64,000 bases of DNA. Origin: Alphaproteobacteria bacterium (GTDB taxonomy: Bacteria; Pseudomonadota; Alphaproteobacteria; UBA9219; RGZA01). The DNA lies in NCBI GenBank assembly GCA_033762625.1, contig JANRLI010000007.1, positions 151,541 to 215,540 of the forward strand, written 5' to 3'. The translations under genes were made by a program, and so were the position numbers. Within the stretch, counting starts at the first letter, position 1; every line of letters starts with the position of its first letter. This document shows, piece after piece, positions 47,936 to 63,580 of this stretch. The notes under the pieces were generated by a model. That model was not told the DNA's origin. It saw only the letters and a program-made list of their open reading frames with translations, and searched no databases.

Positions 47936-48613
47936 TTGACCATGGCTACCAATCTTCTTATGCCCAAGGCGACGGCTGTATGGCTTGTTGAAAATACAGC
48001 GCTTAGCTTTGACCAGATTTCCGAATTCTGCGAATTACATCCGCTGGAAGTCAAAGCGATTGCCGATGGCGAAGTAAATATCGGCATGGTGGGCCTCAAC
48101 CCTATTTTGAATGGCCAGATTACCAAGGAAGAAATCGAACGCTGCGAAAAAGACCCCAGCGCAAAAATTTCCATGAAGGTGAACAAGCTGCCGGAAGTGG
48201 CAACGCGCCAAAAGGGCCCACGTTATACGCCTGTGACCAAACGCGGCGATAAGCCCGATGCTATCGCATGGCTGGTAAAGAACCATCCGGAATTGACCGA
48301 TGGGCAGCTGGTAAACCTGATTGGTACAACCAAAAGCACCATCGAAAAAATCCGTGACCGTTCGCACTGGAATATGAGCAATATCAAACCCCGCGATCCC
48401 GTATATTTGGGATTGTGCAAACAAACCGATTTAAATGCAGCGGTTGAAAAAAGCCGTAAGCATTTGCCAAAGGAACAACAGGCCGCATTGGCCTCAGCGG
48501 ATGCAGCAACAGCAGGCAACGAATCCGAAGTGGGTTTGGTGTCAGGCTTTGGCAGCAGCAATGATAGCCAGCAGCCATCAGATGAAGGTTTCGAAAAGCT
48601 GATGCGCGGCTAA
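47936..48613 (+). CDS. DUF1013-family protein (alphaproteobacterial)
   Basis: ATAVWLVENTALSFDQISEFCELHPLEVKAIADGEV and a second repeated half (AIAWLVKNHPELTDGQLVNLIGTTKSTIEKIRDR) are characteristic of DUF1013. Confidence 0.65.
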   Translation: MTMATNLLMPKATAVWLVENTALSFDQISEFCELHPLEVKAIADGEVNIGMVGLNPILNGQITKEEIERCEKDPSAKISMKVNKLPEVATRQKGPRYTPVTKRGDKPDAIAWLVKNHPELTDGQLVNLIGTTKSTIEKIRDRSHWNMSNIKPRDPVYLGLCKQTDLNAAVEKSRKHLPKEQQAALASADAATAGNESEVGLVSGFGSSNDSQQPSDEGFEKLMRG

Positions 48614-48714: not shown

Positions 48715-48743
48715 TATTTGGTGACGCGGGATAGAGCAGCCCG
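48715..48743 (+). repeat. 29-bp direct repeat duplicating the first 19 nt of tRNA-Met plus 10 nt of 5' flank
   Basis: tatttggtgacgcgggatagagcagcccg recurs identically at 48798-48826 (10 nt of flank, then tRNA-Met 5' end 48808-48826). An inverted copy gctaccgggctgct of tRNA D-arm sequence lies at 48771-48784. Confidence 0.7.
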
Positions 48744-48807
48744 CGGTTTGCACAAGCAAACTAACAAAATGCTACCGGGCTGCTTTGCAGCGCGGTTTAT
48801 TTGGTGA

Positions 48808-48884
<77 letters not shown>

Positions 48885-49086: not shown

Positions 49087-51759
49087 TCAGAAGTTGTACT
49101 TCTTCCGGCGCTGCATAAATGCCTCCTTGCCGCCCTCAAGGATTTCCTCGGCCAGCGCGGCGACGCTCTTCTTGTCGATCGAGCCCATATGCTCCGGTGG
49201 AACATCGGCATGCCCATCACCTGCTTCGCCGACCGCCCTCATGCCAATGATCAGCTCTGCGTCGCCGAGCACTGGAATGTTGGCATTGTGAGAGGAGAAG
49301 ATGAACTGACGTCTGCGCTTCTCAGCACGGATGCGTGGCACGATGCCCTCGGAGATGAACCGGTTATCGAGATTGTCTTCCGGCTGGTCGAGCACCAGCG
49401 GAGCCTCTGCATCGAGCAGCAATAGATACAGCAGCGCCGTCGCTTTCTGCCCTGTCGACAGATCTCCCAGTTTTCGCCATTCCGGCGGTGCGCGCTCTGC
49501 ACCGACGTTCAACTCGATTTCAGTAACGTGCGGCAGATCTAACTCTTCTACTAGCATTGGTAGCTCTGGCCCGGCGGCCGCCAATTTCTCTCCTTGCGCG
49601 GTCGGTATACCGAATTCCTTGTTAAGGGGCTCCTTTCCTGCCCGCAGCGCCTCCGCCAACGCCCCCAGCGACAATTGCTCCTTCTTCGCTATTGCGGCGC
49701 TGGCCTCGGCAAAGCGACCAGGGCGCTGCTTAATGAGATCGAGAAGGGCTGTGCGGTCGGCGCCATAGCGAACAGTGACTCGTAGGCGATCCGGCAGTTC
49801 TCGGCTCACCTTCTTGGCGGCTTTTTCCAACCGCTGGAACGTCTCACGCTTAAGGTCCTCCCAGGCGGCAAGATCATTGCGCCGCCGCTGCTCGAAGGCT
49901 TTTTGTCGCGTCTCCAACGCTGCCTTTTGGCCCTGCAAAGGTGACAAGCGCTCGATGTCCTGGCGGAGCTTGATGAACTCGTTGCCGTCGATCTTATCCC
50001 TTTGTAGATCGCGCAAGGCAGCCTCGTAAGCTTGTTGCGACGCCTTTTTCTCCGTATCGATGGCGCTAGCTACAGAGGCGATTTCGCTTTCGGCTACGGC
50101 CAAAGCATTTGCCAGCAACTTTTGCGCCTCTTCCACGGCGGCCTTCAACCGTGTGATCGTTGCGCCCAGTCCCTTGAGCAATTCAGCCGCCGGTAGCTCC
50201 TTCAATGCCACCTCTGAGATGAAATCGGCATCCACGTCGACTGCTTCTAGCAGGCCATCGCGGGCATCGCGGACCGGCTGCAGCCGTTGTTTAGCTGTGC
50301 TGATGATGGCTTCGGCCTTCACGATGACGTCGCGGGATTTAAGCTTCTCCTCGACACCGGCGGCACGATAACGGTTCAGCGTTTCCGTCAACGCCGGCAA
50401 AGCTGCTAGTTGCTCGTCAACTTTTGTGGCTTTTCCTATGCAATCGAGAATGCCTTGGCGACTTTCCTTCAGCTTTTCCTGGAGGTCCTGGTACCTCTCG
50501 TCGGCCGCGCCATCTACCGCGACAAAGCGATATAGCAGTGATGTCAGTTTCTCCGGGCTGCGCGCTAGTTCCGCCAACTCGTTCTGGCCATAGACAGCGG
50601 TTCCGCGGACGATGTCTATGGGCTTTTGTTTCAACACGTCGCCGTTTTCGTCAATGACCCTCGGCGGATCAGGCACGGTTCGTTCGATCAGGAAGCGGCG
50701 CCGGTCTGGCTGGTAAGACTGCACGAGCAAGGAGATCTTGGTACCGCTCTTCAACACACCGCTGATAATACCATTGTGAATGTCTTTGGCATCGTCGCCT
50801 ACTGGCTCAAGCCCCAGCACGTAGCGCAGACTCTCGATCACCGTGGACTTTCCTGAGCCGCGCCCTCCAATGAGGACGTTTAGGTTCTCGTTGAAATGTA
50901 TCCGGCAGCTTCGGAGGAACCCCTCCGTCTCCCAAGCCATTCCGATGAATTCGACGTGCTCTTCAGGGCCCGGATCGCTGGCTAGACGAATGCGGGAGCT
51001 TGGATCGAGGAATGCTTGCCGGAGCCCTTCGATTGTGGGCTCAGTCATCTTGACCATGCACCATGCACCGCCGCGCGAAACATCATCCGGGCTCTTCACG
51101 TCGCCGCAGTTTAGCACGCTGATATGCCGGTCACGATGATAGGCAGGGTCAGTGTTCTTAAGGATCGGTCTCACATCCTCCGGTGCATCATTGACCGGTC
51201 CGGGAATAGCACAGGCCGCGAGTTCTTCGTGCCTCCAGATGGCGCTTCGTGCTTTTCCAGCCTGTAGTGCCCGAAATAGTCCACCGGCGCTGGCTACATG
51301 AGCTACGATGCACTGCATCTCCCATTTCGGGCAATTGTCCAGCAGTTCGCCTGCCGATAGCTCACCGAGCGGCGAAGCTTCCTCATCGTCATGCACTCCG
51401 CAGGCGCTGATGCAAGACTGTACGGCATCAAAGGTCTTAGCGGGGTCGAAGAGGCAAAGGACGTGGACGCCCTCGCGTGTCACTGCCTCGAAACCGGGGA
51501 ACACCACGATGCCAGCAGCCCGCGCGGCGTTGGCAAGGCTTTCAGCACCCCTTATCCGGTAGTGATCGGTGATAGCGATGACCTCGATATCAGCGTCACG
51601 GCATGCCTTGATGATCGCTTTATTGTACTCATCTTCGCTCTTGTACGCAGTCGGGTGCTTGTGACGGAGAACGTAGTCAAATGTGTTGACTTGGAATGCG
51701 CACCGGAAAAAGCGCGATCCGTTCGGCAATGCCTTCAGTTGTTCTAGAAAAGGATGCAT
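49087..51759 (-). CDS. PHP phosphoesterase domain fused to an SbcC/Rad50/SMC-like coiled-coil ATPase (890 aa); last gene of the defence operon
   Basis: N-terminal ~270 aa is PHP-like (IAITDHYRIRG, FPGFEAV). It has Walker A LIGGRGSGKST, a long coiled-coil middle, a C-terminal ABC signature LSTGQKATAL and Walker B/D-loop PLVLDQPEDNLD. Confidence 0.7.
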   Translation of the reverse strand: MHPFLEQLKALPNGSRFFRCAFQVNTFDYVLRHKHPTAYKSEDEYNKAIIKACRDADIEVIAITDHYRIRGAESLANAARAAGIVVFPGFEAVTREGVHVLCLFDPAKTFDAVQSCISACGVHDDEEASPLGELSAGELLDNCPKWEMQCIVAHVASAGGLFRALQAGKARSAIWRHEELAACAIPGPVNDAPEDVRPILKNTDPAYHRDRHISVLNCGDVKSPDDVSRGGAWCMVKMTEPTIEGLRQAFLDPSSRIRLASDPGPEEHVEFIGMAWETEGFLRSCRIHFNENLNVLIGGRGSGKSTVIESLRYVLGLEPVGDDAKDIHNGIISGVLKSGTKISLLVQSYQPDRRRFLIERTVPDPPRVIDENGDVLKQKPIDIVRGTAVYGQNELAELARSPEKLTSLLYRFVAVDGAADERYQDLQEKLKESRQGILDCIGKATKVDEQLAALPALTETLNRYRAAGVEEKLKSRDVIVKAEAIISTAKQRLQPVRDARDGLLEAVDVDADFISEVALKELPAAELLKGLGATITRLKAAVEEAQKLLANALAVAESEIASVASAIDTEKKASQQAYEAALRDLQRDKIDGNEFIKLRQDIERLSPLQGQKAALETRQKAFEQRRRNDLAAWEDLKRETFQRLEKAAKKVSRELPDRLRVTVRYGADRTALLDLIKQRPGRFAEASAAIAKKEQLSLGALAEALRAGKEPLNKEFGIPTAQGEKLAAAGPELPMLVEELDLPHVTEIELNVGAERAPPEWRKLGDLSTGQKATALLYLLLLDAEAPLVLDQPEDNLDNRFISEGIVPRIRAEKRRRQFIFSSHNANIPVLGDAELIIGMRAVGEAGDGHADVPPEHMGSIDKKSVAALAEEILEGGKEAFMQRRKKYNF

Positions 51760-51770
51760 AAAATCTCGGC

Positions 51771-54700
51771 CTATACTTGGAAAATTTCATCGAGCGACGT
51801 TGCGTGCACAAAACGTGCAGGATTGTCAGCCGCGGCAATCGCAGTGAAGTGGGCTTTTCCGCACGCTATCTTGGCGGCTTCCTTGTCGCGCAGATCATCC
51901 TTGAACAGGCTGCCCTTGGTCTCGACGACGAAGTAAAGGCGCTCGGTGCCGTTCTTCTCGACCAGTACGGCCCAGTCGGGATTGTAGAAGCCGAGAGGGG
52001 TGGGTACTTTGAACCATTGCGGAAGCTTGGCGTAGACGCGGACAGCATCGTTCGCTTCGAGTGCTTCCGCAAAGGGGCGTTCGATGGTCTCTGAATCATA
52101 TACGACGTACTCGTAGACCGAGCGTTTGGACGCGATCGCGTTCTTCATGAAGCGCACCAGCTCCTGACTCTTGAAAAGCTGCTGACAGTAGAATTGGTCG
52201 TCGCCGAGCCGCTGATACTTGATGCCGTCTACGAGCGCGAGGCGCTTGGTGCGGTTGATGCACTCAGCGGCAATCTCGATGAATTCCTGCGGGTTACGTT
52301 TGAAGTCGTTGAGCCGACCGCTGTCCTTCAAGATGCGCACGATGCTGCGTCGGGTGAGCTGGGTCTTATCTTGCAAATCTGTGAGTAGGTCCGGCAGTTC
52401 TATGTCGTTCTCATCCAGCGTGATGTAATTGGTGCTGGTCGCATCGCCGGCAATCACGCCCCCTTTACCGATGGCTAGATCGGCCTTTCGGACATGGATG
52501 CGCGCTTTACTGATGGCGGGGCCGTCACCCAACGCTTTTGCACAGCTTGCTATCAGCTTCTCGTTGTCGAATTCCACTCGGTAAGTCGTCTTGTGCTTTA
52601 TGCGGTCCCATAGCTCTTTGAACTCTGGGCTATCCAGAACGGCCTGCCGAGTCCGAATGGTTTTCTTGGCATCCGCATCTTTGATTTCCAGGCGACCGGC
52701 GAGCTTGCGAAGTATCTCGCGCACTTGAGCAGCGTGTGGTGCAAGGTGCTTAGGCAGGGTAAGCGTATTATCTTTTAAAGCTTTGCGCAGCTCGTCCTGG
52801 ACCTTGCCTTGGGCATTCACGAGGCCTTCACCTTTCAGGTGCTCGAAGATTGCCTTCGACTCATCGAAGCCGAGCACGCCGAGTGTGCCATCAGCCTTCG
52901 TCACTGTGATGGCAGCGAACTGCTGCGGTTCCACGATGCCAAACCGGTAGCCGGTCTCTCGCTCGATCTCCGTCTGCAATTGCTCGGCGAAGCTCTCGTA
53001 GCTTTCGTTGGCTATGACCGTCAGGATGTTAACGTTCGTGTCGCGCACACGCTCGCCATTCTGATTGACGCAGATGCGCAAGCCGCGCCCGATGCTCTGG
53101 CGGCGCTCGCGTTCCGTGCCGATTTCACGCAGCGCGCAAATCTGGAAGACGTTCGGGTTGTCCCAGCCTTCGCGTAGCGCGGAGTGGGAGAAAATGAACT
53201 TCAGCTTGGTATCGAAGCTGAGCAGCTTCTCCTTGTCGCGCATGATGAGATTGTAGGCGCGCTCGGCGTTGTCCCGGTTCGACTGGTTGTTCTCAGCCGT
53301 GTCGCTCCACGCGCCCTTCTTGTCGATGGAGAAATAGCCATTGTGGACGTCCGCCGCTTCGGTCGTTACGTCGACATCTTTGAACAGCGTCTGGTACTCG
53401 GGAAGCTTGGCCGCGCGGCGGTACTCCTCCTCGAACATCAGTGCGTACTTGCCTTTGTGAGCTGTCGACTGCTTCTTGCCGCCGATCTCCTTCTCCTCGT
53501 AGCGGCGATAGTTCTCGACCGCATCGATAAAGAACAGGCTCAGCACTTTGATGCCGAGGGGGGCAAGGCGCACCTCGGCATCCAGATGCTCTTTGATTGT
53601 GCGGCGGATCATCTGACGCTTGACTTGATCCGGATCGACCTCGCCAATAGCCTGGCCGGTCTCCAGGAACTTCTCTTCCCCTGGCATCTTGATCTCGGCG
53701 AGCTGCTGGCCACGGCCAGCGCGTATCTCGCCGATGCGATAGCCGCGATAAACCTGCCGTCCTGTCAGCTCCTCCAGATCGTCACCATCGCGCACTGCTT
53801 TTTCCATGCGCCGCACGCCGCCTTGCTGCTGTACGTCGATCTCGACGCGCGCGGTGACGCCATTGGCACGCGTGCTCGACGTGGCGACGAGACGGATATA
53901 CGGCTTGTTGTGAACGCCCTCGACTTCCATGCCGGCGACGGAGATCTGCTTGACCAGCTTCCGCTCGTAGGCATCTACGGCATCGAGCCGGTAGACCATG
54001 TGATGCTTGTCGGCGTGGGTTGCCGAATAGCGCAATGTGCTCAGCGGATTGAGCTTCTCAATGGCTTTGCGACCCTGGCCTTCGAGACCGCCGTCGACGG
54101 ATTGCGGCTCGTCGATGATGACGATTGGCCGGGTTGCGGAGACCAGATCAATCGGGCGTTCGTCGGCGAGCTTCTCGTTGCGGCGATACATGACGTTGGT
54201 TGTTGGCCTGTCGCGCGCATCAAGATGCTGCGCTTCGTCCTCGTCACCGAAGCGATTGATGGCGCCGACGGTGATGACCATGATGCGGATGTGCGGGCTT
54301 GTGGCGAAGTCGCGCACGAGGCCGAGCTTGGCGGAATCATAGATGAAGAAATCGTAGCCTTTGGCCGAAGGGAAGTACTGCTCGAAGTGTTCGCGCGTGA
54401 TCTGCAGCGTCTTGAACACGCCCTCCTTGATGGCGATGGAGGGGACGACTATGACGAACTTGGTGAAGCCGTACTGCCGGTTCAGCTCGAAGATAGTGCG
54501 GAGATAGACGTAGGTCTTGCCGGTGCCGGTCTCCATCTCGACGGTGAAGTCGCCGGAAGAGAGCGTGTCGGAGGGCCGAACGCCGTTGCGCAGCTGCACA
54601 GCATGTAGGTTGGCTAGCAATTCGTCGTCCAGCAGGGTGAGGCGGTTGCCGATGCCTAGTCCAGACTCTTCAAGCCCGAGCGACTTTTGCATTCCAGGCT

Positions 54701-54863
54701 TCACGCCGAGATCGGCGCCGCCGAACTCAAGGCCGATCTGCCCACGAGTTGGCTTAGTGACAGTGAACTCGGTGCGGCAGATTTCTTGGCCGCGGAAAAG
54801 GTCAGCGACAGCGTTGACAGCTTGTTCCTGGAAGTCGAGGGGCCATTCAAAGTGAAGCTTCAT
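51771..54863 (-). CDS. res: type III restriction enzyme Res subunit (SF2 helicase plus C-terminal PD-(D/E)xK endonuclease)
   Basis: Motif I ETGTGKTYV, motif II VIIDEPQS. The C-terminus FYNPDWAVLVEKNGTERLYFVVETKGS is a PD-D/ExK nuclease. 1030 aa. It lies 10 nt downstream of mod. Confidence 0.85.
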   Translation of the reverse strand: MKLHFEWPLDFQEQAVNAVADLFRGQEICRTEFTVTKPTRGQIGLEFGGADLGVKPGMQKSLGLEESGLGIGNRLTLLDDELLANLHAVQLRNGVRPSDTLSSGDFTVEMETGTGKTYVYLRTIFELNRQYGFTKFVIVVPSIAIKEGVFKTLQITREHFEQYFPSAKGYDFFIYDSAKLGLVRDFATSPHIRIMVITVGAINRFGDEDEAQHLDARDRPTTNVMYRRNEKLADERPIDLVSATRPIVIIDEPQSVDGGLEGQGRKAIEKLNPLSTLRYSATHADKHHMVYRLDAVDAYERKLVKQISVAGMEVEGVHNKPYIRLVATSSTRANGVTARVEIDVQQQGGVRRMEKAVRDGDDLEELTGRQVYRGYRIGEIRAGRGQQLAEIKMPGEEKFLETGQAIGEVDPDQVKRQMIRRTIKEHLDAEVRLAPLGIKVLSLFFIDAVENYRRYEEKEIGGKKQSTAHKGKYALMFEEEYRRAAKLPEYQTLFKDVDVTTEAADVHNGYFSIDKKGAWSDTAENNQSNRDNAERAYNLIMRDKEKLLSFDTKLKFIFSHSALREGWDNPNVFQICALREIGTERERRQSIGRGLRICVNQNGERVRDTNVNILTVIANESYESFAEQLQTEIERETGYRFGIVEPQQFAAITVTKADGTLGVLGFDESKAIFEHLKGEGLVNAQGKVQDELRKALKDNTLTLPKHLAPHAAQVREILRKLAGRLEIKDADAKKTIRTRQAVLDSPEFKELWDRIKHKTTYRVEFDNEKLIASCAKALGDGPAISKARIHVRKADLAIGKGGVIAGDATSTNYITLDENDIELPDLLTDLQDKTQLTRRSIVRILKDSGRLNDFKRNPQEFIEIAAECINRTKRLALVDGIKYQRLGDDQFYCQQLFKSQELVRFMKNAIASKRSVYEYVVYDSETIERPFAEALEANDAVRVYAKLPQWFKVPTPLGFYNPDWAVLVEKNGTERLYFVVETKGSLFKDDLRDKEAAKIACGKAHFTAIAAADNPARFVHATSLDEIFQV

Positions 54864-54873
54864 TGGCCGATCC

Positions 54874-56871
54874 TCACAAGCTGCGCACGATCATCGGGCG
54901 ATCTTCACGCGCTTGCGCGAGAATGGCGGTGAGGTTCGTCTTGGCCACATCATCTGCGAAGGCACTGTCGCGGAACACGACCACAGTCTCACCAGCGGGA
55001 GCCAGCTCCTTGTGCCAGTCGGCGATGCCGTGAGCAAGCTTCTCGACGTCCTTTGCAGATATCTTGGTATTCAGGCACGCCATGAGTGTGCCGGCGCCAA
55101 TGTTGTAGACGGTCTTGCCCGCGATTTTCTTCTCTTCGAGCGGTACGGTCAGCTCCAAGCCGAGCTTCAACAATAGTTCGGCCAGGATATCTTTCTCCGT
55201 TCGGTCGGTCTTCAGGTGCTCAACAGATTCATCGAGAGTGCTAGCAATGTCATCGCGGCGTGGATCCCACGCACGGATGTTGCTCGTGTTGAGTTGAAAT
55301 GTTCGGAAGCCTAGGTCTCCTGCGAATAGCGGATTGGCAGACTTCAATCGAGCACCAGCACGCCGGAGCCTTTCCTTAGTCAACTCTGCAATGTTGCGGG
55401 GACGGTTCAATGCGTCACAAAGCTGTGCCGCGCCCCGTTGTTCCTTGTCATCGACGCTCAATGGCTCGGGCAGCTGAACTAGGATGAAACGCCGCTGGAC
55501 ATTGTCCGCAGAATTCAGCTGCATGACGGCTCTCGCGCTCGCGCCTGAGCCCGCAAAGAAGTCGAGCATTATGTCGCCAGTTTGCTTAAGCACAAAAGGA
55601 AAAAACGAAGTGAACAATCTTACTGGTTTGGGATTGCTAAATACTTTAACTTGCTCTGGAAAGTCTTCGCGCAAATCGTATGCGCCCAAGCGCCCATCTA
55701 ACTCAAGCAAGCTGGACAGTTTTTCCTCGTACTCATGAGCGTAAACTTTGAGTTCGACGATTTTATCGTGATCGTCGCCGAATAGTATTCGCCCCTCCGC
55801 TAAGAGCGTGTCCATTGTCTCCTTCGGGAAGCGATAGCCCATGAGGGGCTGCTTGCATGGTTTTTTAGTTGCCGGATGAATTACGTCGTAGCGATAGCCC
55901 TCTTTGCCAGGATTGTGAACGCTCTGACTGCCGGTATAAACACCGCCCTTATCGATGTACTTATACCTGTCCAAAGGCCAGAGTTCGCTCTTATGCTCCC
56001 GGAACCAAGACTCGTATTCTGCAGTCAACCGATCCCCCGAGTGGCGGGCCGCTAGTTCGGTTCCAACGCGAACCAGGACATCCTTTACGTCCGAAACCTT
56101 GGACTTCCATTCTTTCTCAATGGCATTGCGATCCTTGGCTATGGCCAGGATGTATTCGTGTTCGGTGGCAACATTCGTTGGATTGTTGTCGGTCGCGTTC
56201 TTCCACACCACAGTTCCGAGCACATTCTCGGCGCCGTAAATCTCATTGCACATCGCGGCGAGGTTTGCGTACTCAACGTTGTCTATGGAAATAAATATTA
56301 CGCCGTCGGACTTTAGAAGTGCGCGCGCCAGCCGCAAGCGCGGATACATCATATTCAGCCAGTCGGTGTGAAACCGCCCTGATGCATCCGTGTTCGACGA
56401 GATGCGTTTGTCCCCCTCGATCTGCCCTGTCAGTTCCAGGTAGTTGCGGATGTTGTCGCGGAAGTCGTCGGGATAGACGAAGTCCTTGCCGGTGTTGTAC
56501 GGCGGGTCGATGTAGATGAGCTTGACCTTGCCTGCGTAGCTCTTCTGCAGAAGCTTGAGCACCTCCAGATTGTCGCCCTCGATCATGAGGTTCTGCGTCG
56601 TGTCCCAATCGACGCTTTCCTCGGGGCAGGGGCGCAGCGTTCCAGTTGATGGTGTGAGCGCGAGTTGGCGTGCACGGCGCTTGCCGTGCCAGTTGAGGCC
56701 GTAGCGTTCCTCGCGCTCGTCGATCGTGCCGCCCAACAGCTGCTTCAGAACGTCGAAGTCGATCTTGCCTTCCTTGACGGCCTCGGGAAACAGCACCTTG
56801 AGCTGGTCGACATTTGTGGCGACAACGTCGGCACTCTTTGCCAGCGCATCCTCTGCATCGATCTTCTTCAT
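54874..56871 (-). CDS. mod: type III restriction-modification Mod subunit, N6-adenine DNA methyltransferase
   Basis: LIYIDPPYNTGKDF (motif IV DPPY), SAM motif FFAGSGASARAV, 665 aa. There is no separate specificity subunit. Confidence 0.85.
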   Translation of the reverse strand: MKKIDAEDALAKSADVVATNVDQLKVLFPEAVKEGKIDFDVLKQLLGGTIDEREERYGLNWHGKRRARQLALTPSTGTLRPCPEESVDWDTTQNLMIEGDNLEVLKLLQKSYAGKVKLIYIDPPYNTGKDFVYPDDFRDNIRNYLELTGQIEGDKRISSNTDASGRFHTDWLNMMYPRLRLARALLKSDGVIFISIDNVEYANLAAMCNEIYGAENVLGTVVWKNATDNNPTNVATEHEYILAIAKDRNAIEKEWKSKVSDVKDVLVRVGTELAARHSGDRLTAEYESWFREHKSELWPLDRYKYIDKGGVYTGSQSVHNPGKEGYRYDVIHPATKKPCKQPLMGYRFPKETMDTLLAEGRILFGDDHDKIVELKVYAHEYEEKLSSLLELDGRLGAYDLREDFPEQVKVFSNPKPVRLFTSFFPFVLKQTGDIMLDFFAGSGASARAVMQLNSADNVQRRFILVQLPEPLSVDDKEQRGAAQLCDALNRPRNIAELTKERLRRAGARLKSANPLFAGDLGFRTFQLNTSNIRAWDPRRDDIASTLDESVEHLKTDRTEKDILAELLLKLGLELTVPLEEKKIAGKTVYNIGAGTLMACLNTKISAKDVEKLAHGIADWHKELAPAGETVVVFRDSAFADDVAKTNLTAILAQAREDRPMIVRSL

Positions 56872-57638
56872 CCTTGCCCCCTCGCAAGTGTTGCCTTGGC
56901 CGCAACGAGCTCCGCCTCCAGCCTCTGGATGGCGAGGTTGAGCTCGACGCGGCGGTTAATCTGGGTTTCCCGCGCGGCCTTCTTGCGCAACATGGCAATC
57001 TCGCGTGTGACCCGCGTATGGGTGTCGAGCGCCGCGCGCCGCAAGGCCGCTTCCTCAGGAGACTTTGGCAGGTTGAACGCTCCCGTCAAGTTCGACGCAG
57101 CAAGCCCCGCACAGCAATCGATCCAGCCCTGATAGAGTGCCCACAAATGCTGCTGAGGCTGCCGGGCAATGCTCAAACTTGCCAAGAAGGTTGCCCCCAA
57201 CGCGTCACCCTCAGAGCCGGTTGTGGCACATACCAGGGGCCCATCGAGCACCACTGCGGCCTTTTCAGCCTGGGATGCGCGCTTGTGAGCCAGCGACAGC
57301 TGCACAGTCTCGCCGTCCGCTACGAGCAGAAGCACGGGGTAGGGCACGGCTCGATGGATCAACTCCGTCAAGCGGGCTACCTTCGCACCTTCACGAAGAG
57401 AGGCTGTGATGATGGCTATTTCCAGATATTCGCCTGCTTCACCTTTCCAAATGGGCACGCCAATGTTGGTTGGCTTGAGCGCGGCAATCCAGAGCAGCTC
57501 ATTGACGCCATCTTGTATGGCACGCTTGTCGGCAGCGGTCGGCGCACCCTGTTCGGTTAGCAGTTTCTTTGTAATGCGCTGATCAACCCGAGCAGTATCG
57601 GGGATGGCGAGAGCACTAATAACTGCGTCCAGCGTCAT
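56868..57638 (-). CDS. hypothetical protein, 256 aa; possibly DUF4391-like
   Basis: Overlaps the helicase stop and the mod start by 4 nt each. My family assignment is from memory of similar helicase/mod/res neighbourhoods. No catalytic motif is visible. Confidence 0.45.
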   Translation of the reverse strand: MTLDAVISALAIPDTARVDQRITKKLLTEQGAPTAADKRAIQDGVNELLWIAALKPTNIGVPIWKGEAGEYLEIAIITASLREGAKVARLTELIHRAVPYPVLLLVADGETVQLSLAHKRASQAEKAAVVLDGPLVCATTGSEGDALGATFLASLSIARQPQQHLWALYQGWIDCCAGLAASNLTGAFNLPKSPEEAALRRAALDTHTRVTREIAMLRKKAARETQINRRVELNLAIQRLEAELVAAKATLARGQG

Positions 57639-60600
57639 GTGCTGCCGCCTTTGCCCTCCTCAGGCAGTACGATGAGAAAGGCAACCACTTCAAAATCATT
57701 GATGCCTGCAAATTCGCCCTTCATGGCGTGTGTGCCGCCTGGCGCGAACAGGCTCGCTGCAGCGCGCTCCTCCTTCTTGCCGACAATGGAGGCAACTGCA
57801 CGCGCCAGCAGTTTTTGGTACGACGACATATCCGCACCTTGCTTTGTAGAGCGATCGAGGCGGGCCCATGCCTTGGCGTCCGGTTCCGTGCGATCAAGCG
57901 CCAGTCGCTTTAGGCGATCGAGCACCTGCTTGACCTGTGTGTAGGGCAGCAGGACGTCACCGCCGTCGCCGATATGGACGAGGTAGTGCGGTGCCAACGG
58001 GTAACCTGGCTCGATGCCTTGCAAGGCAGTCTCACTTGCCGCGCGAAGGCAGAAGATGACACCGGATGAGATTGCGCTGTCTCCGATTTGCGGAGCTGTC
58101 ACTACGGCAGACAAGCCGAGTGGCATTGCATCAAGTTCGGCGCGGCGACTCTTGATCTGACCTGCGAGATCGATGCGGAAATCGTTGAGCGTTAGATCGG
58201 CGATGGAAACGCCACTTGACAGATCCTCAAGGTCAATGACGGTGTCTTGGAGCTTCTGCAGCTGGTTACGGCGATATTCGAGGTCATTCATCTGATTACC
58301 AGACTGGTGCTCGATGACGTTTTCCTCTCCGGTTGCTGAAACGTCGAGCAGGACCATGCGTCCACTGACGCGCTGTTCGAGATTGATGTATTCGTCTAGC
58401 TCCATGTTGGGCCAAAAATTGACCAGCTGAACGGACGTGTTCGGCGAGCCGATGCGATCAATGCGCCCGAAACGCTGGATGATGCGAACCGGATTCCAGT
58501 GAATGTCATAGTTGATGAGAAAGTCGCAATCCTGGAGGTTCTGGCCTTCAGAGATGCAATCAGTGCCGATCAGAAGGTCAATCTCGCCTTCCTTAGCAAG
58601 CTCGGCAGGACGCTCCTTTGAGCGTGGCGAGAATGCGGCAAGGATGCTGCCAAGGTCGGCTCTCACAGACTTAAGAGTGGTGCGGTTTGGCCCCGCCCCT
58701 GTGACGAGCGCAGCATCGACGCGATGCTCCTTCGCAGCCCACGGAGCGAGCTCTTTGTAAAGATACTCAGCCGTATCGGCGAAAGCCGTAAAGATCAAAA
58801 TCTTGCGATTTTTGTCATTGAGTGGGTTAGCCATCTTGCGCGTGATGATATCGCGCAGATCGGCCAGTTTGGCATCCCGGCTCGGGATGACTTGGAGAGC
58901 TGCTTTGAGCAGTGCCGATAGCCGCTTCCGATCTTCATCGAGATCTTGGCGCCATCGCACGCGGTCAACATCGTGCAGCAGAACCTTCACTTTCCGTCCG
59001 ACCAGAAGAGACTCGAATGCAGCATCATCGACGTCGATATCGTCGATCGATACCTCCTCAACATCGTCGTCGTGGGCATCTATCCGGGCGATCACATGCT
59101 CCACATCCTTAAGCTGACGTTGGATTGTCAATGCGAATGAAGCGACGGAGCTTTCCATGCGCTTCAAGATGTTGACGCGCAGCAGGTGAACGAGGCTTTC
59201 CTCGCGGTCAACCTGCCGAAAAATGCTTTCGCCGCCACGGATCTTGGTACTGTATTTCTCATCGTAGGCGGCTTGCTTGTGGCGAAGCACGTAGCGCAGC
59301 GGGGCGTAGGCGGCGAGCGTCAATCGGCGGATTTCGTTGTTGATCTCGCGGATCGGCCGAAACTCAGCGGCGAGGTCCACGTCGGACTTAATGTTTAGCG
59401 GCTTGCGGCGCTCCGGGAAGCGGCCAGTTTCAGTGATCCCGTAGTATTTCTCGATGTGTTTGCGCGAACGCGCGATGGTCAGCAGATCAAGCAACTTGAA
59501 GTAGTCGAAGCCCAGCATCTCAATGAGGCGGGAGGGACGTCGATCCTCCTCAGCAAGGTCTGACCAGCGGTTGAACTGCGATTGGGCCTGACGAACCGTT
59601 GCTTCGATACTCGGAATGTTGTGGGTGGCTAGTGCCGTGTCATTTCCCTCGGTCGCGAACGCGATCTGGTTCTTGAGATCTGCGAGCCGATTGTTCACCG
59701 GCGTTGCCGATAGCATCAGCACCTTAGTCTTCACGCCAGCGCGGATAAGCCGGTTCATGAGACGGTCATACCGGGTCTCGCGTTCCTTGTGTGGCGCCTT
59801 GTTCCGGAAGTTATGAGACTCGTCTATGACGAGCAGATCGTAGTTTCCCCAGTTAACGTGGCTGAGGTCGATGTCACCTGATAGGCCACCATCGCGTGAT
59901 AGATCGGTGTGGTTGAGCACGTCGTAGTTTAAGCGGTCAGGGGCCAGCACGTTGCGGCGATCGTTGGCCTTATAAAGCGTCCAGTTGTCTCGGAGACGTT
60001 TGGGGCAGAGCACCAGCACGCGGTCATTGCGTAGTTCGTGATACTTGATGACCGCAAGAGCCTCGAACGTCTTTCCGAGACCAACACTGTCGGCGATGAT
60101 GCAGCCACCAAATCGCTGCAACTTATCGATCGCGCCAATCACTCCGTCTCGCTGAAACTTGAACAGTTTGTTCCAAACCACAGTGTCGCGAATGCCGGTT
60201 GCCGAACGGACAATGCGATCCTCGTCCAGTTCCTCACTCATGTCTTTGAAGATCTGGTAGAGTATATGGAAGTAGGCGCCAGCCGGCGCGTGTTCTGTTG
60301 CAAGCGAGGCAACGCGATCTACGAACGCTTGCTGAGAGTCAGGGTCATCTTTGAGTTGTGACCATTGAGATTCAAACCATTGCACGAGCGGCGCGGCATC
60401 CTGCTCATCCTCAGCTATTTGGATAAAGCCGATTTGGTTGCTGGGAGTGAGCCCGATACCGTCAGTTGTCAAAGCGCAGGTGCCGACATACGCGCGCTGC
60501 GCCTCTGACTGCGTGGCAATCATCAACGCTTGTGGGATCGCCGAAGTCGTAGAGCGAACGGCTATGGCCGAGCACCAACGAGCCGCTGTGCGCGCGATCC

Positions 60601-60841
60601 AGCGTGTTCGCAGTCGATTGCGAAACACGCGGTCAGCGTCTGATCCAAGAAGCGACTGCGCCGCATTCGAACTTCCAATAATCAACCTGCAACGTTCAGC
60701 GGTGGCCAGAGCCTCTTGAACCTCCTCGAAAGCAAAAAGGGAAAACTCCGGTGAACAGATATCCAGAGCTGTACCGGGTTTCACGAAGCCTCGAAGTTCG
60801 TCGACAAGGCGCTCGCTGCCCGAATTACGCAGAAGCTTCAT
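57635..60841 (-). CDS. SNF2-family helicase with a ~230-aa N-terminal domain of unknown function
   Basis: DExH box LLVIDESHNFRN and motif I ADSVGLGKT. C-terminal motifs V/VI LIGTDCISEGQNLQ and QRFGRIDRIGS. 1068 aa. The N-terminal domain may be a degenerate PLD-like nuclease fold. Confidence 0.8.
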   Translation of the reverse strand: MKLLRNSGSERLVDELRGFVKPGTALDICSPEFSLFAFEEVQEALATAERCRLIIGSSNAAQSLLGSDADRVFRNRLRTRWIARTAARWCSAIAVRSTTSAIPQALMIATQSEAQRAYVGTCALTTDGIGLTPSNQIGFIQIAEDEQDAAPLVQWFESQWSQLKDDPDSQQAFVDRVASLATEHAPAGAYFHILYQIFKDMSEELDEDRIVRSATGIRDTVVWNKLFKFQRDGVIGAIDKLQRFGGCIIADSVGLGKTFEALAVIKYHELRNDRVLVLCPKRLRDNWTLYKANDRRNVLAPDRLNYDVLNHTDLSRDGGLSGDIDLSHVNWGNYDLLVIDESHNFRNKAPHKERETRYDRLMNRLIRAGVKTKVLMLSATPVNNRLADLKNQIAFATEGNDTALATHNIPSIEATVRQAQSQFNRWSDLAEEDRRPSRLIEMLGFDYFKLLDLLTIARSRKHIEKYYGITETGRFPERRKPLNIKSDVDLAAEFRPIREINNEIRRLTLAAYAPLRYVLRHKQAAYDEKYSTKIRGGESIFRQVDREESLVHLLRVNILKRMESSVASFALTIQRQLKDVEHVIARIDAHDDDVEEVSIDDIDVDDAAFESLLVGRKVKVLLHDVDRVRWRQDLDEDRKRLSALLKAALQVIPSRDAKLADLRDIITRKMANPLNDKNRKILIFTAFADTAEYLYKELAPWAAKEHRVDAALVTGAGPNRTTLKSVRADLGSILAAFSPRSKERPAELAKEGEIDLLIGTDCISEGQNLQDCDFLINYDIHWNPVRIIQRFGRIDRIGSPNTSVQLVNFWPNMELDEYINLEQRVSGRMVLLDVSATGEENVIEHQSGNQMNDLEYRRNQLQKLQDTVIDLEDLSSGVSIADLTLNDFRIDLAGQIKSRRAELDAMPLGLSAVVTAPQIGDSAISSGVIFCLRAASETALQGIEPGYPLAPHYLVHIGDGGDVLLPYTQVKQVLDRLKRLALDRTEPDAKAWARLDRSTKQGADMSSYQKLLARAVASIVGKKEERAAASLFAPGGTHAMKGEFAGINDFEVVAFLIVLPEEGKGGST

Positions 60842-63069
60842 GGCGTCTCTCTGCGTTGCTGATGAGTGGTCTCAGTTCGATCCGAGGTATCGTCTACTTC
60901 ATCCCCAAGTCTCGCCAACAGTTCCTTCAGACTAACTCCATCAGCCTTCCAGACACGCCAACCGTTCTCCGATTTCCTAATCTGGCCTACACTGGCGTAG
61001 CACCGGACGGCTGCATCGCTAGGCGAGAAGATGCCATCAGCGATTTTGATGCCGCTCCCGGTGATTTGACCGGTGAAGCGGTGATCCTTGTATGAGAGTT
61101 GAAGTGCATCACCGCCTTTGAGGCTGCCAGATGCGATGAGGCGCTGTAGACGTTCTGTGAAGTGCGGTGTCGAAGTTGGTTCGGTCGCCGTCCTTTTGCG
61201 AGTGTCCGCCGGGCGCGGCCAGAGCGTGAGGCCACGTTCAAACAATTCATTGCCACGAGAGATGATGTCGGCTTCTGACCAACGCTTGTGTTCGCCACTG
61301 CGCAGCCAGGCATTGAGGCGCAGATCACTGTCTGTAACGATAGCTTTGCTTTTGCCTGCGAACGCGCCATTGCTGACCGAAGTGTTCAGCGCCTGTGTGA
61401 GCAATGTGAGGTTGCCAATCGTGTGTAATATGCGGCTACGGCAACGCTCGTGCGTTTCATCGTCACGGATTGGCATGCTATCAGCGTAGGGGTAGTCACT
61501 CAGCACATATTTCTGCGGCAACAAGTGCTCGATCGAAAGCTTTGTGGGAATCTGAAGCGCTTCGTTGCGCGTTGTGCGACTGACTTCTTCAATGGCTCTT
61601 AGCACCATGGCAGCACGCTCGGTGCGCGTCTTCATATAGATAGGTTCTGAAAGCCACGCTTTGCGGAACTCATCGTCAGACGGCCAAATCGCCGTCTTCT
61701 CCTCGGAGCGCAGCAGCTCATCGCGGATCGCATCGGCGATCGATGCGTGATCGCTTGCCGCCTTCTTCGCCTTGCTGAGAAGACCGAGGAAGAACTTGTT
61801 GTAGTTCTTGGTGGTTAGACCGCAAATCAATCGGCGCACAAGGAAGGATTCGAGATCTACGATGGCGCGTTCGAGCTGATCGGTCGGAAGCACGTCTTTG
61901 GGTTGCGCCATCAGGAAGAGGAGCAGGGGATAGACCGTGCTGGTGTCCAATGCTTTTAGGCGGCGCGCGAACACCGCGAGACGATCATTCCCTTCTGGTG
62001 CGATCAGCTGTTGGAACCGTGCGCTCTGCGTCTTGAGATCGGCGAGCAACTTTTCGACGTTGCCATCACCCTTCTCATGCCATTCGCGGAATTCTTTGAA
62101 GAGCTGGCCGATGTTCAGTTCACGCTCGGTGTGGAGCGTGAGGTAGTGGAAGAGGAAGAGATCGATGCGCGGGCGGGTGAGGCGGCCTTGTCGCTCCAGC
62201 ATGTGCCAGAAGCGATCTTCGCCTGTGTCGTCGGGCAGGTCCTCGCGCAGATCGTCGAAAGCCTTCCAGTAGTTCTCATAAAGTTTGTCGCTCGACTTGT
62301 CGGCCTTGGCCGTTGCCTTCAGGAACACGTAGTTGCGCACGAGATCGGATGGCAGCAGAGGCTGACCACGCGCATTCAGTGTCTCGAAGATCACCTGCGG
62401 ATCATCGCCCTGTTCAAGCTCGATCACCACGAACAGCAAAGAGGTGCGCATCGCCTGAGCGATCGCATGAATACGATCGGCCTTCTCGTCAGCCGTCTTT
62501 CCTTCATCGGCGAACTGCCGGATCACATCGGCAAAATAGAGGTACGCTTCCGCCATGCGCGGCAACGCTTGCTCCGCCGGCGAACCCTCACGCGCATAAA
62601 GTGCTTTGACCGCAGCTGGGCCGCCAGCACGCATCACGGCGCGAAACACATCTCGGTCGGCGTTGGTCGGCCAGACCTTCAGCTCTTCATCTGAACCTTC
62701 ACGATCGGGATTGACTGACCAGCGCGCCGCCTGCTTCTGGACGCGTTGATCGATTTCGGTCGCGCAATCGCGCAGCGCGGCGATGAACAGTTGGAGGGTC
62801 GTTAGGCGCTGCTGACCGTCGATGACATCTGCCTTCGCGATAGCACGGCCCTGAACCTGATTGATGCTCCACACTGCGGCGCCGAGGAAGTGCGAGCCAA
62901 GCTTTCCGGTGCTGTCCTGTAGCGCACGTTCGGCCTGCTTGCGGATGTCGTCCCAGAGAGGCTCCCATTGGTCGTCTTGGTTCCAGACATAGGCGCGCTG
63001 ATAGAGCGGGATGTCGTAGCGGCGCTCCTTCTCGAAGACGTCGTGGATCGTGAATTTGTGTGGCTGCAT
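60838..63069 (-). CDS. GmrSD-like nuclease (N-terminal DUF262 plus C-terminal DUF1524 His-Me finger)
   Basis: IPLYQRAYVW and DGQQRLTT (DUF262 DGQQR motif). C-terminal IEHLLPQ...HTIGNLTLLTQALNTSVSNGAF is an HNH-like block. The probable start is ATG 63069 (MQPHKFTIHDV) with a GGGGGGA ribosome-binding site. The ORF-table start is 63168. Confidence 0.75.
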   Translation of the reverse strand: MQPHKFTIHDVFEKERRYDIPLYQRAYVWNQDDQWEPLWDDIRKQAERALQDSTGKLGSHFLGAAVWSINQVQGRAIAKADVIDGQQRLTTLQLFIAALRDCATEIDQRVQKQAARWSVNPDREGSDEELKVWPTNADRDVFRAVMRAGGPAAVKALYAREGSPAEQALPRMAEAYLYFADVIRQFADEGKTADEKADRIHAIAQAMRTSLLFVVIELEQGDDPQVIFETLNARGQPLLPSDLVRNYVFLKATAKADKSSDKLYENYWKAFDDLREDLPDDTGEDRFWHMLERQGRLTRPRIDLFLFHYLTLHTERELNIGQLFKEFREWHEKGDGNVEKLLADLKTQSARFQQLIAPEGNDRLAVFARRLKALDTSTVYPLLLFLMAQPKDVLPTDQLERAIVDLESFLVRRLICGLTTKNYNKFFLGLLSKAKKAASDHASIADAIRDELLRSEEKTAIWPSDDEFRKAWLSEPIYMKTRTERAAMVLRAIEEVSRTTRNEALQIPTKLSIEHLLPQKYVLSDYPYADSMPIRDDETHERCRSRILHTIGNLTLLTQALNTSVSNGAFAGKSKAIVTDSDLRLNAWLRSGEHKRWSEADIISRGNELFERGLTLWPRPADTRKRTATEPTSTPHFTERLQRLIASGSLKGGDALQLSYKDHRFTGQITGSGIKIADGIFSPSDAAVRCYASVGQIRKSENGWRVWKADGVSLKELLARLGDEVDDTSDRTETTHQQRRETP

Positions 63070-63580
63070 GGCCGTCCCCCCCAGGTACCTTCCAGCATAA
63101 AGAACAGGGCGATAAACACAACGAGAGGCTGCATACTTCTTTGTTGAGAATGGGCGAGTTTTCCACATTTATTCAACGACTTGAAAGAAGGTGGGCGCGT
63201 CCGCCAGCAGTAGCGGCGGACCGGGCTCTCGTGAACCGAGCCGCCTGAAGGCGAAGTGCGGGCGTCTCGGCCATCCGGCATCGATCCCTCGCGCGTGTCG
63301 TTCAATGTGATGCCGGCAGTCCACTTGTCTCAGCATCGGTGACACTCAGCGATCGCCGCGTGATCCATAGATCGCGATGTCAGGTTCGCTGCCTGGTTGG
63401 TATTGGGCCCGCTCGGCTCACGTGGCGCGCTTTAGCGCCGCGTCGACCGCGCGCAAGGCATAAAGCCTCCTTCACTTCGTTGCGGCCCCTAAAGGGGTGC
63501 GCGCGGTCTCATGCCGCGTCGCTCCGGAAAGCGCGTTGAGCCGAGCATTGGGCCCGGCTCCGCACTTGAAGGAGCTCACC

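What the first reader, a model, noticed from the sequence alone, without database searches (positions are those of the whole stretch)
49087..51759. Single-polypeptide PHP nuclease plus SbcC/Rad50-like ATPase encoded directly after type III Res
SbcCD and Mre11-Rad50 split the phosphoesterase nuclease and the coiled-coil ABC ATPase into two proteins. Here a PHP-family phosphoesterase is fused to the N-terminus of an ATPase that has Walker A, a long coiled coil and a C-terminal signature plus D-loop.

Its position as the terminal gene of a mod-res operon suggests a DNA-end-processing or abortive module coupled to restriction. I vaguely recall NCBI labelling similar proteins as a 'TrlF-family AAA-like ATPase' but cannot confirm that.

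The PHP active site needs checking: the canonical N-terminal HxH is not obvious, and the protein begins ...FRCAFQVNTFDY.
Basis: seen in the sequence. Interest (0 to 1): 0.7.

Follow-up and report, generated by a model that had tools for sequence, protein, structure and literature searches.

The report
TrlF/Ppl-type defence nuclease-ATPase behind restriction genes
The gene encodes a member of an already named and widespread bacterial family (TrlF, which includes the anti-phage protein Ppl) that fuses a PHP phosphoesterase to an SMC/Rad50-like ATPase. It sits as the last gene of a mobile restriction-modification operon, so it is an ordinary, mildly variant defence gene and not a new kind of machine.

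Summary
Window 49087-51759 (-) is an intact 890-aa ORF starting 11 nt after a type III Res gene. It has an N-terminal PHP-fold domain, an SMC/Rad50-type ABC ATPase head, and a ~240-residue helical insertion with no zinc hook.

The fusion is not new. The protein passes NCBIfam's TrlF-family model (485 bits, cut-off 350). The validated anti-phage protein Ppl scores about the same on that model. I counted at least 1,200 clusters at 50% identity and relatives on 1,111 plasmids.

The link to Res is accessory:
- The SNF2-DUF4391-Mod-Res cassette occurs without TrlF on three plasmids.
- Most close relatives of this TrlF are solo genes.
- The ~50%-identical sister clade is followed by TrlG in 59 of 78 loci. 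TrlG is absent here.
- TrlF genes do recur next to type I and type III R-M and BREX operons.

Two sequence features stand out. The PHP HxH motif is an invariant QxN in this clade, while H66, E91, H99, H154 and D220 are kept. The Walker B catalytic Glu position is Gln throughout the superfamily.

Best reading: an NTP-gated, DNA-end-sensing Ppl-like defence effector co-transcribed with a restriction cassette in an island next to tRNA-Met. It is a new member of a known kind, and interest is low to moderate.

The parts
49087..51759 (-). TrlF-family (Ppl-superfamily) protein, 890 aa. Domains: PHP-fold domain (about aa 15-260), ABC head N-lobe (270-415), antiparallel helical insertion (417-654), small helical domain (655-745), ABC head C-lobe (745-890).
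50980..51717 (-). PHP-like domain (aa 15-260). Invariant Q23-x-N25 replaces HxH. H66 (TDH), E91 (GFE), H99, H154 (AHV) and D220 are conserved. The final His of the DxH motif is absent (K222).
49798..50511 (-). Coiled-coil-type helical insertion (aa 417-654). The predicted turn lies at about aa 507-524. There is no CxxC zinc hook.
49366..49398 (-). Walker B and D-loop, LVLDQPEDNLD (aa 788-798). Gln792 sits at the catalytic-Glu position.
51771..54863 (-). Type III restriction subunit Res (helicase plus C-terminal endonuclease), 11 nt upstream of TrlF.
54874..56871 (-). Type III Mod methyltransferase. Its central region differs from the otherwise 83%-identical block in L001.
56868..57638 (-). DUF4391 protein. 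It overlaps both neighbouring genes by 4 nt.
57635..60841 (-). SNF2-type helicase (PADLOC 'HKD+Snf2' candidate, DrmD-like).
60838..63168 (-). GmrSD-type (DUF262/DUF1524 plus RAMA) type IV restriction enzyme. It overlaps the SNF2 start by 4 nt and is not part of the block shared with L001.
48808..48884 (+). tRNA-Met at the edge of the island. GC rises from about 48% to about 56% here. TrlF ends 202 nt away.

Best explanation
The gene encodes a TrlF-family protein, a member of the superfamily that contains the anti-phage protein Ppl. It belongs to a monophyletic sub-clade that lacks the usual partner TrlG.

Proposed mechanism, by homology:
- It works as a homodimeric SMC/Rad50-like ABC head that binds NTP.
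- The universal Gln at the Walker B catalytic position suggests nucleotide sensing or a slow switch rather than motor activity.
- It engages DNA ends.
- It presents them to the N-terminal PHP phosphoesterase, which degrades invading DNA when nucleotide pools fall or free 3' ends appear.

Genomic setting: the gene has been captured as the last cistron of a mobile SNF2-DUF4391-Mod-Res cassette, inside a six-gene defence operon next to tRNA-Met. It is therefore expressed together with restriction. It probably acts as an autonomous extra layer that can use the DNA ends that restriction produces.

Shown here: family membership, fold, motifs, operon arrangement, mobility of the five-gene block.

Inferred: defence function, NTP gating, end sensing, nuclease activity of the QxN variant, and any use of Res-made ends.
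For: Family membership:
- NF045780 TrlF_fam_ATP scores 485.5 bits (cut-off 350) over residues 13-889.
- An annotated Ppl scores 477 bits on the same model, so Ppl lies inside this family.
- The PADLOC Ppl model hits at E 4e-38.

Fold and motifs:
- PHP and SMC/Rad50 folds.
- H66, E91, H99, H154 and D220 are each at least 96% conserved (115-120 of 120 representatives). D791, Q792, E794, H824 and K304 are conserved in 120 of 120.

Ppl function: reported as a 3'-5' ssDNA exonuclease inhibited by bound NTPs and triggered by 3'-OH ends (review PMC12904381; Xu et al., Mol Cell 2026, cited in PMC13434339). Ppl restricts T7 (PMC11482910).

Context:
- Gaps or overlaps of -4 to 11 nt run through six same-strand defence genes.
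- GC shifts at tRNA-Met.
- 83% nucleotide identity to L001 runs exactly from the SNF2 start to the TrlF stop.
- Relatives sit in integrase, relaxase and defence islands, and on 1,111 plasmids.
- The clade is autonomous: 0 of 9 members have TrlG, against 59 of 78 in the sister clade (Fisher p = 1.3e-5).
Against: - No member of this QxN clade has been tested.
- The two His of motif I and the last His of the PHP site are missing, so the metal site differs from that of Ppl and catalysis is unproven.
- Identity to Ppl is only 23%, and the Ppl-specific model is far below its cut-off (187 against 1000).
- The only experimental work on a TrlF operon (Photorhabdus, PMC7554251) found a temperature-restriction phenotype mapped to trlG, with no mutations in trlF.
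- The Ppl primary paper could not be read. The mechanism is taken from secondary citations.
Confidence: 0.6

Rival explanations
1. TrlF is functionally coupled to the restriction enzyme. It either processes or destroys the DNA ends that Res (and GmrSD) create so that phage DNA cannot be repaired, or it acts as a PrrC/RloC-like back-up that fires when the R-M enzyme is inhibited.
For: - An 11-nt gap after Res with no intervening signals.
- The five-gene block moves as a unit.
- Independent juxtapositions elsewhere: L091 Res-Mod-TrlF; L077 with the same R-M lineage (84% and 75% aa identity) before a TrlF of a different clade; L063 Mod-Res-TrlF-TrlG; L027 TrlF-TrlG followed by Mod-Res.
- MTase directly upstream in L006, L015, L026 and L049.
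- HsdR-TrlF-TrlG-HsdS-AAA-HsdM on a Klebsiella plasmid, and BrxL-TrlF on another.
- Ppl is reported to sense 3'-OH ends made by endonucleases.
Against: - The cassette exists without TrlF on three plasmids.
- Seven of nine members of the window's TrlG-less clade and most of the 78 sister-clade loci have no R-M neighbour.
- The partner systems are heterogeneous (type I, type III, BREX), as expected from defence-island clustering.
- No background rate of adjacency was computed.
Confidence: 0.22
2. The PHP domain of the QxN clade is catalytically inactive. It serves as a nucleotide- or DNA-end-binding sensor or scaffold, and the damage is done by another nuclease (the Res endonuclease domain here, TrlG or others elsewhere).
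For: - HxH is replaced by QxN and the last His is lost. These residues bind the alpha and gamma metals in canonical PHP enzymes (established knowledge).
- QxN occurs in 91 of 120 representatives, with QxH and HxN intermediates.
- The sister clade is nearly always paired with a second protein.
Against: - Five metal ligands, and Q23 and N25 themselves, are strictly conserved, which argues for a working site.
- Members of the TrlG-less clade occur as solo genes with no nuclease neighbour.
Confidence: 0.13
3. It is a housekeeping SbcCD/Mre11-Rad50-type DNA repair enzyme of the host chromosome.
Against: - It lies in a GC-shifted island beside a tRNA, within a restriction operon.
- Distribution is patchy and mobile, with 810 conjugative plasmids among the carriers.
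- There is no zinc hook and only a short coiled coil.
- The nuclease is PHP, not Mre11/SbcD.
- The Walker B Glu is Gln.
Confidence: 0.03

Closest known systems
Ppl (E. coli single-gene anti-phage system; NCBIfam NF042955)
   Same: - Same length (891 against 890 aa) and same order of PHP domain, ABC ATPase head and helical insertion.
- Both pass the TrlF-family model (477 and 485 bits).
- Shared H66, E91, H99, H154, D220, Walker A, LS.GQ signature and DQPED Walker B.
- Often a solo gene on mobile elements.
   Different: - Only 23% identity; the Ppl model scores 187 bits against a cut-off of 1000.
- Ppl keeps HxH (FHNH) and the DxH histidine. The window protein has QVN and D-V-K.
- The window gene is a cistron of an R-M operon.
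TrlF of the Photorhabdus temperature-restriction locus (trlR-trlF-trlG; PMC7554251) and its homologues
   Same: It passes the family model named after this protein. About 50%-identical relatives sit in TrlF-TrlG pairs preceded by a short unannotated ORF, matching the trlR-trlF-trlG layout of Photorhabdus.
   Different: - The window has no TrlG (AlbA_2 plus HATPase_c_4) anywhere in 64 kb.
- No small ORF lies in the TrlR position, because Res ends 11 nt upstream of the TrlF start (TrlR itself was not searched for).
- It belongs to a separate TrlG-less clade.
- Enterobacterial TrlFs that I read have HxH.
SbcCD / Mre11-Rad50
   Same: ABC head split by an antiparallel coiled coil, with Walker A, Q-loop, signature, D-loop and H-loop. 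A nuclease is associated with an end-binding ATPase.
   Different: - The nuclease is a PHP domain fused in cis, not an Mre11/SbcD calcineurin-fold subunit.
- The coiled coil is about 240 residues in total, against about 600.
- There is no CxxC zinc hook.
- Gln replaces the catalytic Glu.
PrrC and RloC (ABC or Rad50-like ATPase fused to a nuclease, embedded in or linked to R-M loci; own knowledge)
   Same: ATPase-nuclease fusion encoded within or next to restriction-modification operons. RloC also has a coiled-coil insertion.
   Different: Those nucleases are C-terminal anticodon tRNases. RloC has a zinc hook. No sequence relationship beyond the ABC fold was tested here.
OLD / Gabija GajA, Septu PtuA, Lamassu LmuB, Wadjet JetC
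   Same: Defence proteins built on ABC/SMC-type ATPase heads coupled to nucleases. Weak HMM hits and structural matches.
   Different: The nuclease types differ (TOPRIM, HNH, Cap4 and others) and are often separate subunits. None has a PHP domain.
PHP nucleases: EndoQ, PolX/PolC PHP exonucleases, RNase AM (YciV/TrpH)
   Different: These enzymes use the HxH motif. None is fused to an SMC-like ATPase.

Membership tests
TrlF family AAA-like ATPase (NCBIfam NF045780) | Whole-protein HMM score at or above the curated cut-off (350 bits), with end-to-end coverage | tested here: met
   485.5 bits; residues 13-889 match profile positions 1-944 of 944
TrlF family AAA-like ATPase (NCBIfam NF045780) | Operon partner TrlG (AlbA_2 plus HATPase_c_4) directly downstream, as in the Photorhabdus TRL locus | tested here: not met
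   No TrlG by tblastn or HMM anywhere in the window. tRNA-Met follows the gene. 59 of 78 sister-clade loci have TrlG. This is a contextual feature, not part of the HMM definition.
Ppl anti-phage protein (NCBIfam NF042955 / PADLOC Ppl) | HMM score at or above the cut-off (1000 bits) | tested here: not met
   187 bits; PADLOC Ppl 129 bits, E 4e-38. A homologue, not an equivalog.
Ppl anti-phage protein (NCBIfam NF042955 / PADLOC Ppl) | PHP plus ATPase single-polypeptide architecture | tested here: met
   Alignment A3 is collinear over the full length. The model confirms the domains.
Ppl anti-phage protein (NCBIfam NF042955 / PADLOC Ppl) | Protection against phage; NTP-inhibited 3'-5' exonuclease | not testable with these tools
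   Requires experiments. Known only for E. coli Ppl.
PHP superfamily (Pfam PF02811) | Pfam gathering score (26.4 bits) | tested here: inconclusive
   24.3 bits, E 4.4e-5, residues 47-123 only. The clade profile hits a solved PHP protein at E 1e-4.
PHP superfamily (Pfam PF02811) | PHP (distorted TIM-barrel) fold | tested here: met
PHP superfamily (Pfam PF02811) | Nine metal ligands, including N-terminal HxH and C-terminal DxH | tested here: not met
   Q23-x-N25 replaces HxH, and D220-x-K222 replaces DxH. H66, E91, H99, H154 and D220 are present.
SbcC / Rad50 | ABC head with Walker A/B, Q-loop, signature, D-loop and H-loop, interrupted by an antiparallel coiled coil | tested here: met
   Motifs; helices 417-506 and 525-654; Smc, Rad50 and SbcC structural matches.
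SbcC / Rad50 | CxxC zinc hook at the coiled-coil apex | tested here: not met
   No CxxC in the protein; the only Cys in the insertion is C440.
SbcC / Rad50 | Catalytic Glu after the Walker B Asp | tested here: not met
   LVLDQ: Q792 aligns with the Glu of SMC VLDE. Gln in 120 of 120 family representatives.
SbcC / Rad50 | Separate Mre11/SbcD nuclease partner | tested here: not met
   The five same-strand operon partners are Res, Mod, DUF4391, SNF2 and GmrSD, and none has a metallophosphatase domain.
Core component of the SNF2-DUF4391-Mod-Res cassette | Present wherever the cassette is present | tested here: not met
   Acetobacter, Paraburkholderia and Desulforapulum plasmids carry the cassette (47-70% aa identity) with no TrlF. 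It is present only in the window and in the 83%-identical L001-L003.

The most novel reading that the evidence does not exclude
TrlF-type proteins are modular 'end-game' cistrons that repeatedly plug into type I, type III and BREX operons. They convert the breaks or stalled complexes made by those systems into irreversible DNA destruction, or they guard those systems against phage inhibitors. The dominant QxN form has a remodelled PHP metal centre. Together with the universal Walker B Gln, this would define an NTP-sensing, non-motor SMC-like nuclease distinct in chemistry from Ppl.
Probability: 0.2. Interest if true: 0.55.

Novelty: new member of a known kind. Interest (0 to 1): 0.3.

Why it matters
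As a stand-alone finding it mainly corrects an impression: the PHP plus Rad50-like fusion is a known, abundant defence architecture (TrlF/Ppl).

Three points could be worth a specialist's follow-up:
- Most of the family near this protein replaces the PHP HxH motif by QxN, so the biochemistry established for Ppl may not transfer.
- The whole superfamily carries Gln at the ATP-hydrolysis position, which fits a nucleotide-sensor role.
- TrlF genes recur as appended cistrons of R-M and BREX operons, so they may be one more candidate for cooperation between defence layers.

Tried and rejected
- Solved close relative: sequence searches of the PDB with the protein, the clade profile and Ppl itself gave only SMC, Rad50 and ABC-F heads. 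No Ppl or TrlF structure is in this copy.
- Ppl primary paper (Xu et al. 2026): not held.
- TrlG anywhere in the window: none by tblastn or HMM.
- Conserved presence of window-type Res, Mod, SNF2 or DUF4391 near 80 genome homologues: mostly absent. I therefore rejected the idea of TrlF as a dedicated type III accessory.
- Far side of the island: the look-up of the window's GmrSD protein found no exact record.
- HTH_37, integrase and the downstream gene of L001: none is in the window.
- Literature on DUF4391: nothing useful.
- Housekeeping SbcCD-like repair role: rejected on context and motifs.
- Metal-site geometry in the model: I could not inspect it because coordinates are not exposed.
Full report
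**What is at the coordinates**

Window 49087-51759 (-) is one uninterrupted ORF of 890 aa with an ATG start. It is the last of six tightly packed genes on the minus strand:
- GmrSD-type type IV restriction enzyme, 60838-63168.
- SNF2 helicase, 57635-60841.
- DUF4391, 56868-57638.
- Type III Mod, 54874-56871.
- Type III Res, 51771-54863.
- This gene, 49087-51759.

The junctions are -4, -4, -4, +10 and +11 nt. No promoter-like or terminator-like site on the minus strand separates Res from the gene. GC rises from about 48% to about 56% at about 48.9 kb, where a tRNA-Met (48808-48884, +) lies 202 nt from the stop codon. The operon is therefore at the edge of a genomic island.

**Domain architecture**

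PHP domain:
- Pfam gives PHP at E 4.4e-5, 24.3 bits, just below the gathering score.
- A profile of the N-terminal 285 residues finds solved PHP phosphoesterases: 3e0f at E 1e-4, plus weaker sub-threshold matches (E 0.03-0.5) to RNase AM, TM0559 and the PolC PHP domain. The alignments run through the TDH, GxE, H and AH motifs.
- An AlphaFold2 model built on 28 homologues has mean pLDDT 82.6, and about 90 in the N-terminal domain.

ATPase:
- Pfam gives AAA_21, SMC_N and AAA_23.
- All ABC motifs are present.

Helical insertion:
- Helices 417-506 and 525-654 lie between the two lobes, with a turn at about 507-524. A small helical domain follows at 655-745.
- There is no CxxC, so no zinc hook. The coil is short, closer to RecN or JetC than to SbcC.

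**Family**

- NCBIfam NF045780, 'TrlF family AAA-like ATPase', matches end to end at 485.5 bits against a cut-off of 350.
- The name comes from the Photorhabdus temperature-restriction locus trlR-trlF-trlG. There the phenotype mapped to trlG (AlbA_2 plus HATPase_c_4), and trlF was annotated as a histidinol phosphatase (PMC7554251).
- An E. coli plasmid gene annotated 'anti-phage protein Ppl' scores 1330 bits on the Ppl model and 477 bits on the TrlF model. Ppl is therefore a sub-family of the same superfamily.
- The window protein is as close to the TrlF model as Ppl is. It is only 23% identical to Ppl and far below the Ppl cut-off.
- The family is large: 1,202 clusters at 50% identity with E <= 1e-30; more than 2,700 hits among the 8,000 candidates scored in the 90% database; relatives on 1,111 PLSDB plasmids, 810 of them conjugative.
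- The identical protein is already in NCBI as 'phosphoesterase' from an alphaproteobacterial MAG.

Ppl mechanism from the literature: Ppl is described as a single-gene system with ATPase and PHP domains. It restricts T7 and is countered by Bas63 gp130 (PMC11482910). A 2026 review summarises it as a 3'-5' ssDNA exonuclease inhibited by NTPs bound to both domains and triggered by 3'-OH ends (PMC12904381). The primary paper is Xu et al., Mol Cell 2026, cited in PMC13434339. I could not read it.

**Active-site details**

In 28 homologues at 51-88% identity the following are invariant: Q23, N25, H66, E91, H99, H154 and D220.

Aligned with Ppl and with enterobacterial TrlFs:
- Q23-V-N25 occupies the position of HxH (Ppl FHNH; E. 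coli and Klebsiella FHLH; Yersinia LHIH; Bradyrhizobium FQCH).
- D220-V-K222 occupies the position of DxH.

Across 120 diverse representatives:
- Motif I is QxN in 91, HxH in 14, QxH in 6 and HxN in 3.
- H66, E91, H99, H154 and D220 are each at least 96% conserved.

From established knowledge of PHP enzymes, HxH supplies two ligands of the alpha metal and the last His supplies one of the gamma metal. The metal centre of this clade must therefore differ from that of Ppl. Activity is neither excluded nor shown.

In the ATPase, the residue after the Walker B Asp is Gln in 120 of 120 sequences, including Ppl. It aligns with the catalytic Glu of SMC. By analogy with E-to-Q mutants of ABC ATPases, this suggests slow or absent hydrolysis. 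That fits an NTP-sensing role. This is an inference.

**Genomic context of relatives**

Sister clade, about 46-53% identical:
- I examined 80 genome loci from many phyla and one archaeal MAG.
- 59 of 78 scorable loci have a gene of about 400 aa directly downstream, and all 59 carry SLFN_AlbA_2 plus HATPase_c_4. This is the TrlG arrangement.

The window:
- It has no TrlG anywhere.

The window's own clade, 55-88% identical:
- 0 of 9 members have TrlG (Fisher p = 1.3e-5).
- These members form one clade in a neighbour-joining tree.
- Seven of the nine sit alone in integrase, relaxase or defence islands.
- Two follow R-M genes: the window's twin L001 (TrlF 88%, Res 95% aa identity) and L091 (a different Res-Mod pair, 12-nt gap).

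**Is TrlF part of the restriction cassette?**

Evidence that it is an add-on:
- The SNF2-DUF4391-Mod-Res cassette occurs at 47-70% aa identity on Acetobacter, Paraburkholderia and Desulforapulum plasmids without any TrlF.

Evidence that it travels with the cassette in this lineage:
- Between the window and L001, nucleotide identity (83%) runs exactly from the SNF2 start to the TrlF stop codon. It is interrupted only over the middle of Mod, and the flanks are unrelated. In this lineage the five genes move as a unit.

Juxtapositions elsewhere:
- L077 carries the L091-type Res-Mod (84% and 75% aa identity) before a TrlF-TrlG pair of the other clade.
- L063 is Mod-Res-TrlF-TrlG, and L027 is TrlF-TrlG followed by Mod-Res.
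- L006, L015, L026 and L049 have a methyltransferase immediately upstream.
- A Klebsiella plasmid has HsdR-TrlF-TrlG-HsdS-AAA-HsdM.
- Another Klebsiella plasmid has BrxL-TrlF.

The association recurs, but it is heterogeneous and found in a minority of loci. It is compatible both with functional cooperation and with ordinary defence-island shuffling. I did not compute a background rate.

**Interpretation**

Most likely (0.6): an autonomous TrlF/Ppl-type defence effector co-transcribed with the restriction cassette.

Rivals:
- Genuine coupling to restriction, as end processing or as a PrrC/RloC-like back-up (0.22).
- A catalytically silent PHP domain acting as a sensor (0.13).
- A housekeeping repair enzyme (0.03).

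**Novelty**

This is a new member of a known kind. The fusion, the name and an experimentally studied relative already exist. The QxN variant, the universal Walker B Gln and the TrlG-less, R-M-appended arrangement are modest refinements and do not amount to a new system.

Noticed in passing
window 49366-49398 (-), aa 788-798: The Walker B motif reads LVLDQPED. The catalytic-Glu position is Gln in this protein and in 120 of 120 diverse TrlF/Ppl-superfamily representatives, including Ppl. The best PDB sequence hits were EttA entries whose printed sequence reads LLLDQPT at this motif; from memory wild-type EttA has Glu there, so these look like E-to-Q constructs. This suggests a built-in hydrolysis brake or NTP sensor.
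   Followed up: partly
window 51685-51693 (-), aa 23-25; family-wide: PHP motif I is QxN in 91, HxH in 14, QxH in 6 and HxN in 3 of 120 family representatives. It looks like an evolutionary series from HxH to QxN, while the other five metal ligands stay fixed.
   Followed up: partly
window 48715-48743 and 48798-48826 (+): A perfect 29-nt direct repeat. The second copy covers 10 nt upstream plus the first 19 nt of tRNA-Met (48808-48884). The first copy lies 83 nt upstream, on the non-island side. It may be a remnant of an earlier integration or duplication at this tRNA.
   Followed up: no
window 54874-60841 (-) and loci L097-L099: SNF2 helicase, DUF4391, type III Mod and Res form a conserved four-gene cassette on plasmids of Acetobacter, Paraburkholderia and Desulforapulum. 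DUF4391 has no PADLOC or NCBIfam match and no useful literature. The helicase matches the PADLOC candidate 'HKD+Snf2'. This R-M variant seems uncharacterised.
   Followed up: partly
window about 55270-56305 (-), middle of Mod: Against the otherwise 83%-identical five-gene block of L001, the central part of Mod has no nucleotide match. From general knowledge this would fit a swapped target-recognition domain, meaning a different methylation and restriction specificity.
   Followed up: no
window 60838-63168 (-): A GmrSD-type (DUF262/DUF1524) enzyme with a C-terminal RAMA domain overlaps the SNF2 start by 4 nt. L001 instead has an HTH_37 gene at this position. A type IV (modification-dependent) enzyme and a type III (modification-blocked) enzyme therefore share one operon here.
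   Followed up: no
loci L004-L083 (for example L022:12638-13867): TrlG-like proteins (AlbA_2/Schlafen plus HATPase_c_4) directly follow TrlF in 59 of 78 loci. They share weak homology with PADLOC pAgo and pAgo-associated SIR2-PNTD models.
   Followed up: partly
L095 (Klebsiella quasipneumoniae plasmid NZ_AP022145.1, 124288-134897): A TrlF-TrlG pair is inserted inside a type I R-M operon, between hsdR and hsdS, with overlapping stops and starts and an extra AAA ATPase before hsdM. The layout resembles prrC within the EcoprrI locus.
   Followed up: no
L091 and L077: The same Res-Mod lineage (84% and 75% aa identity) precedes TrlF genes of two different clades, one without and one with TrlG. This indicates module exchange at a fixed junction.
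   Followed up: partly
window 53184-54608 (+): A 474-aa ORF antisense to Res lies within the GC-rich island. It overlaps a well-supported gene and is very likely a composition artefact.
   Followed up: no
window 47091-47687 (-): A 198-aa ORF just outside the island has no Pfam or NCBIfam match. It is next to the TrcR cell-cycle regulator gene (47936-48613, +).
   Followed up: no
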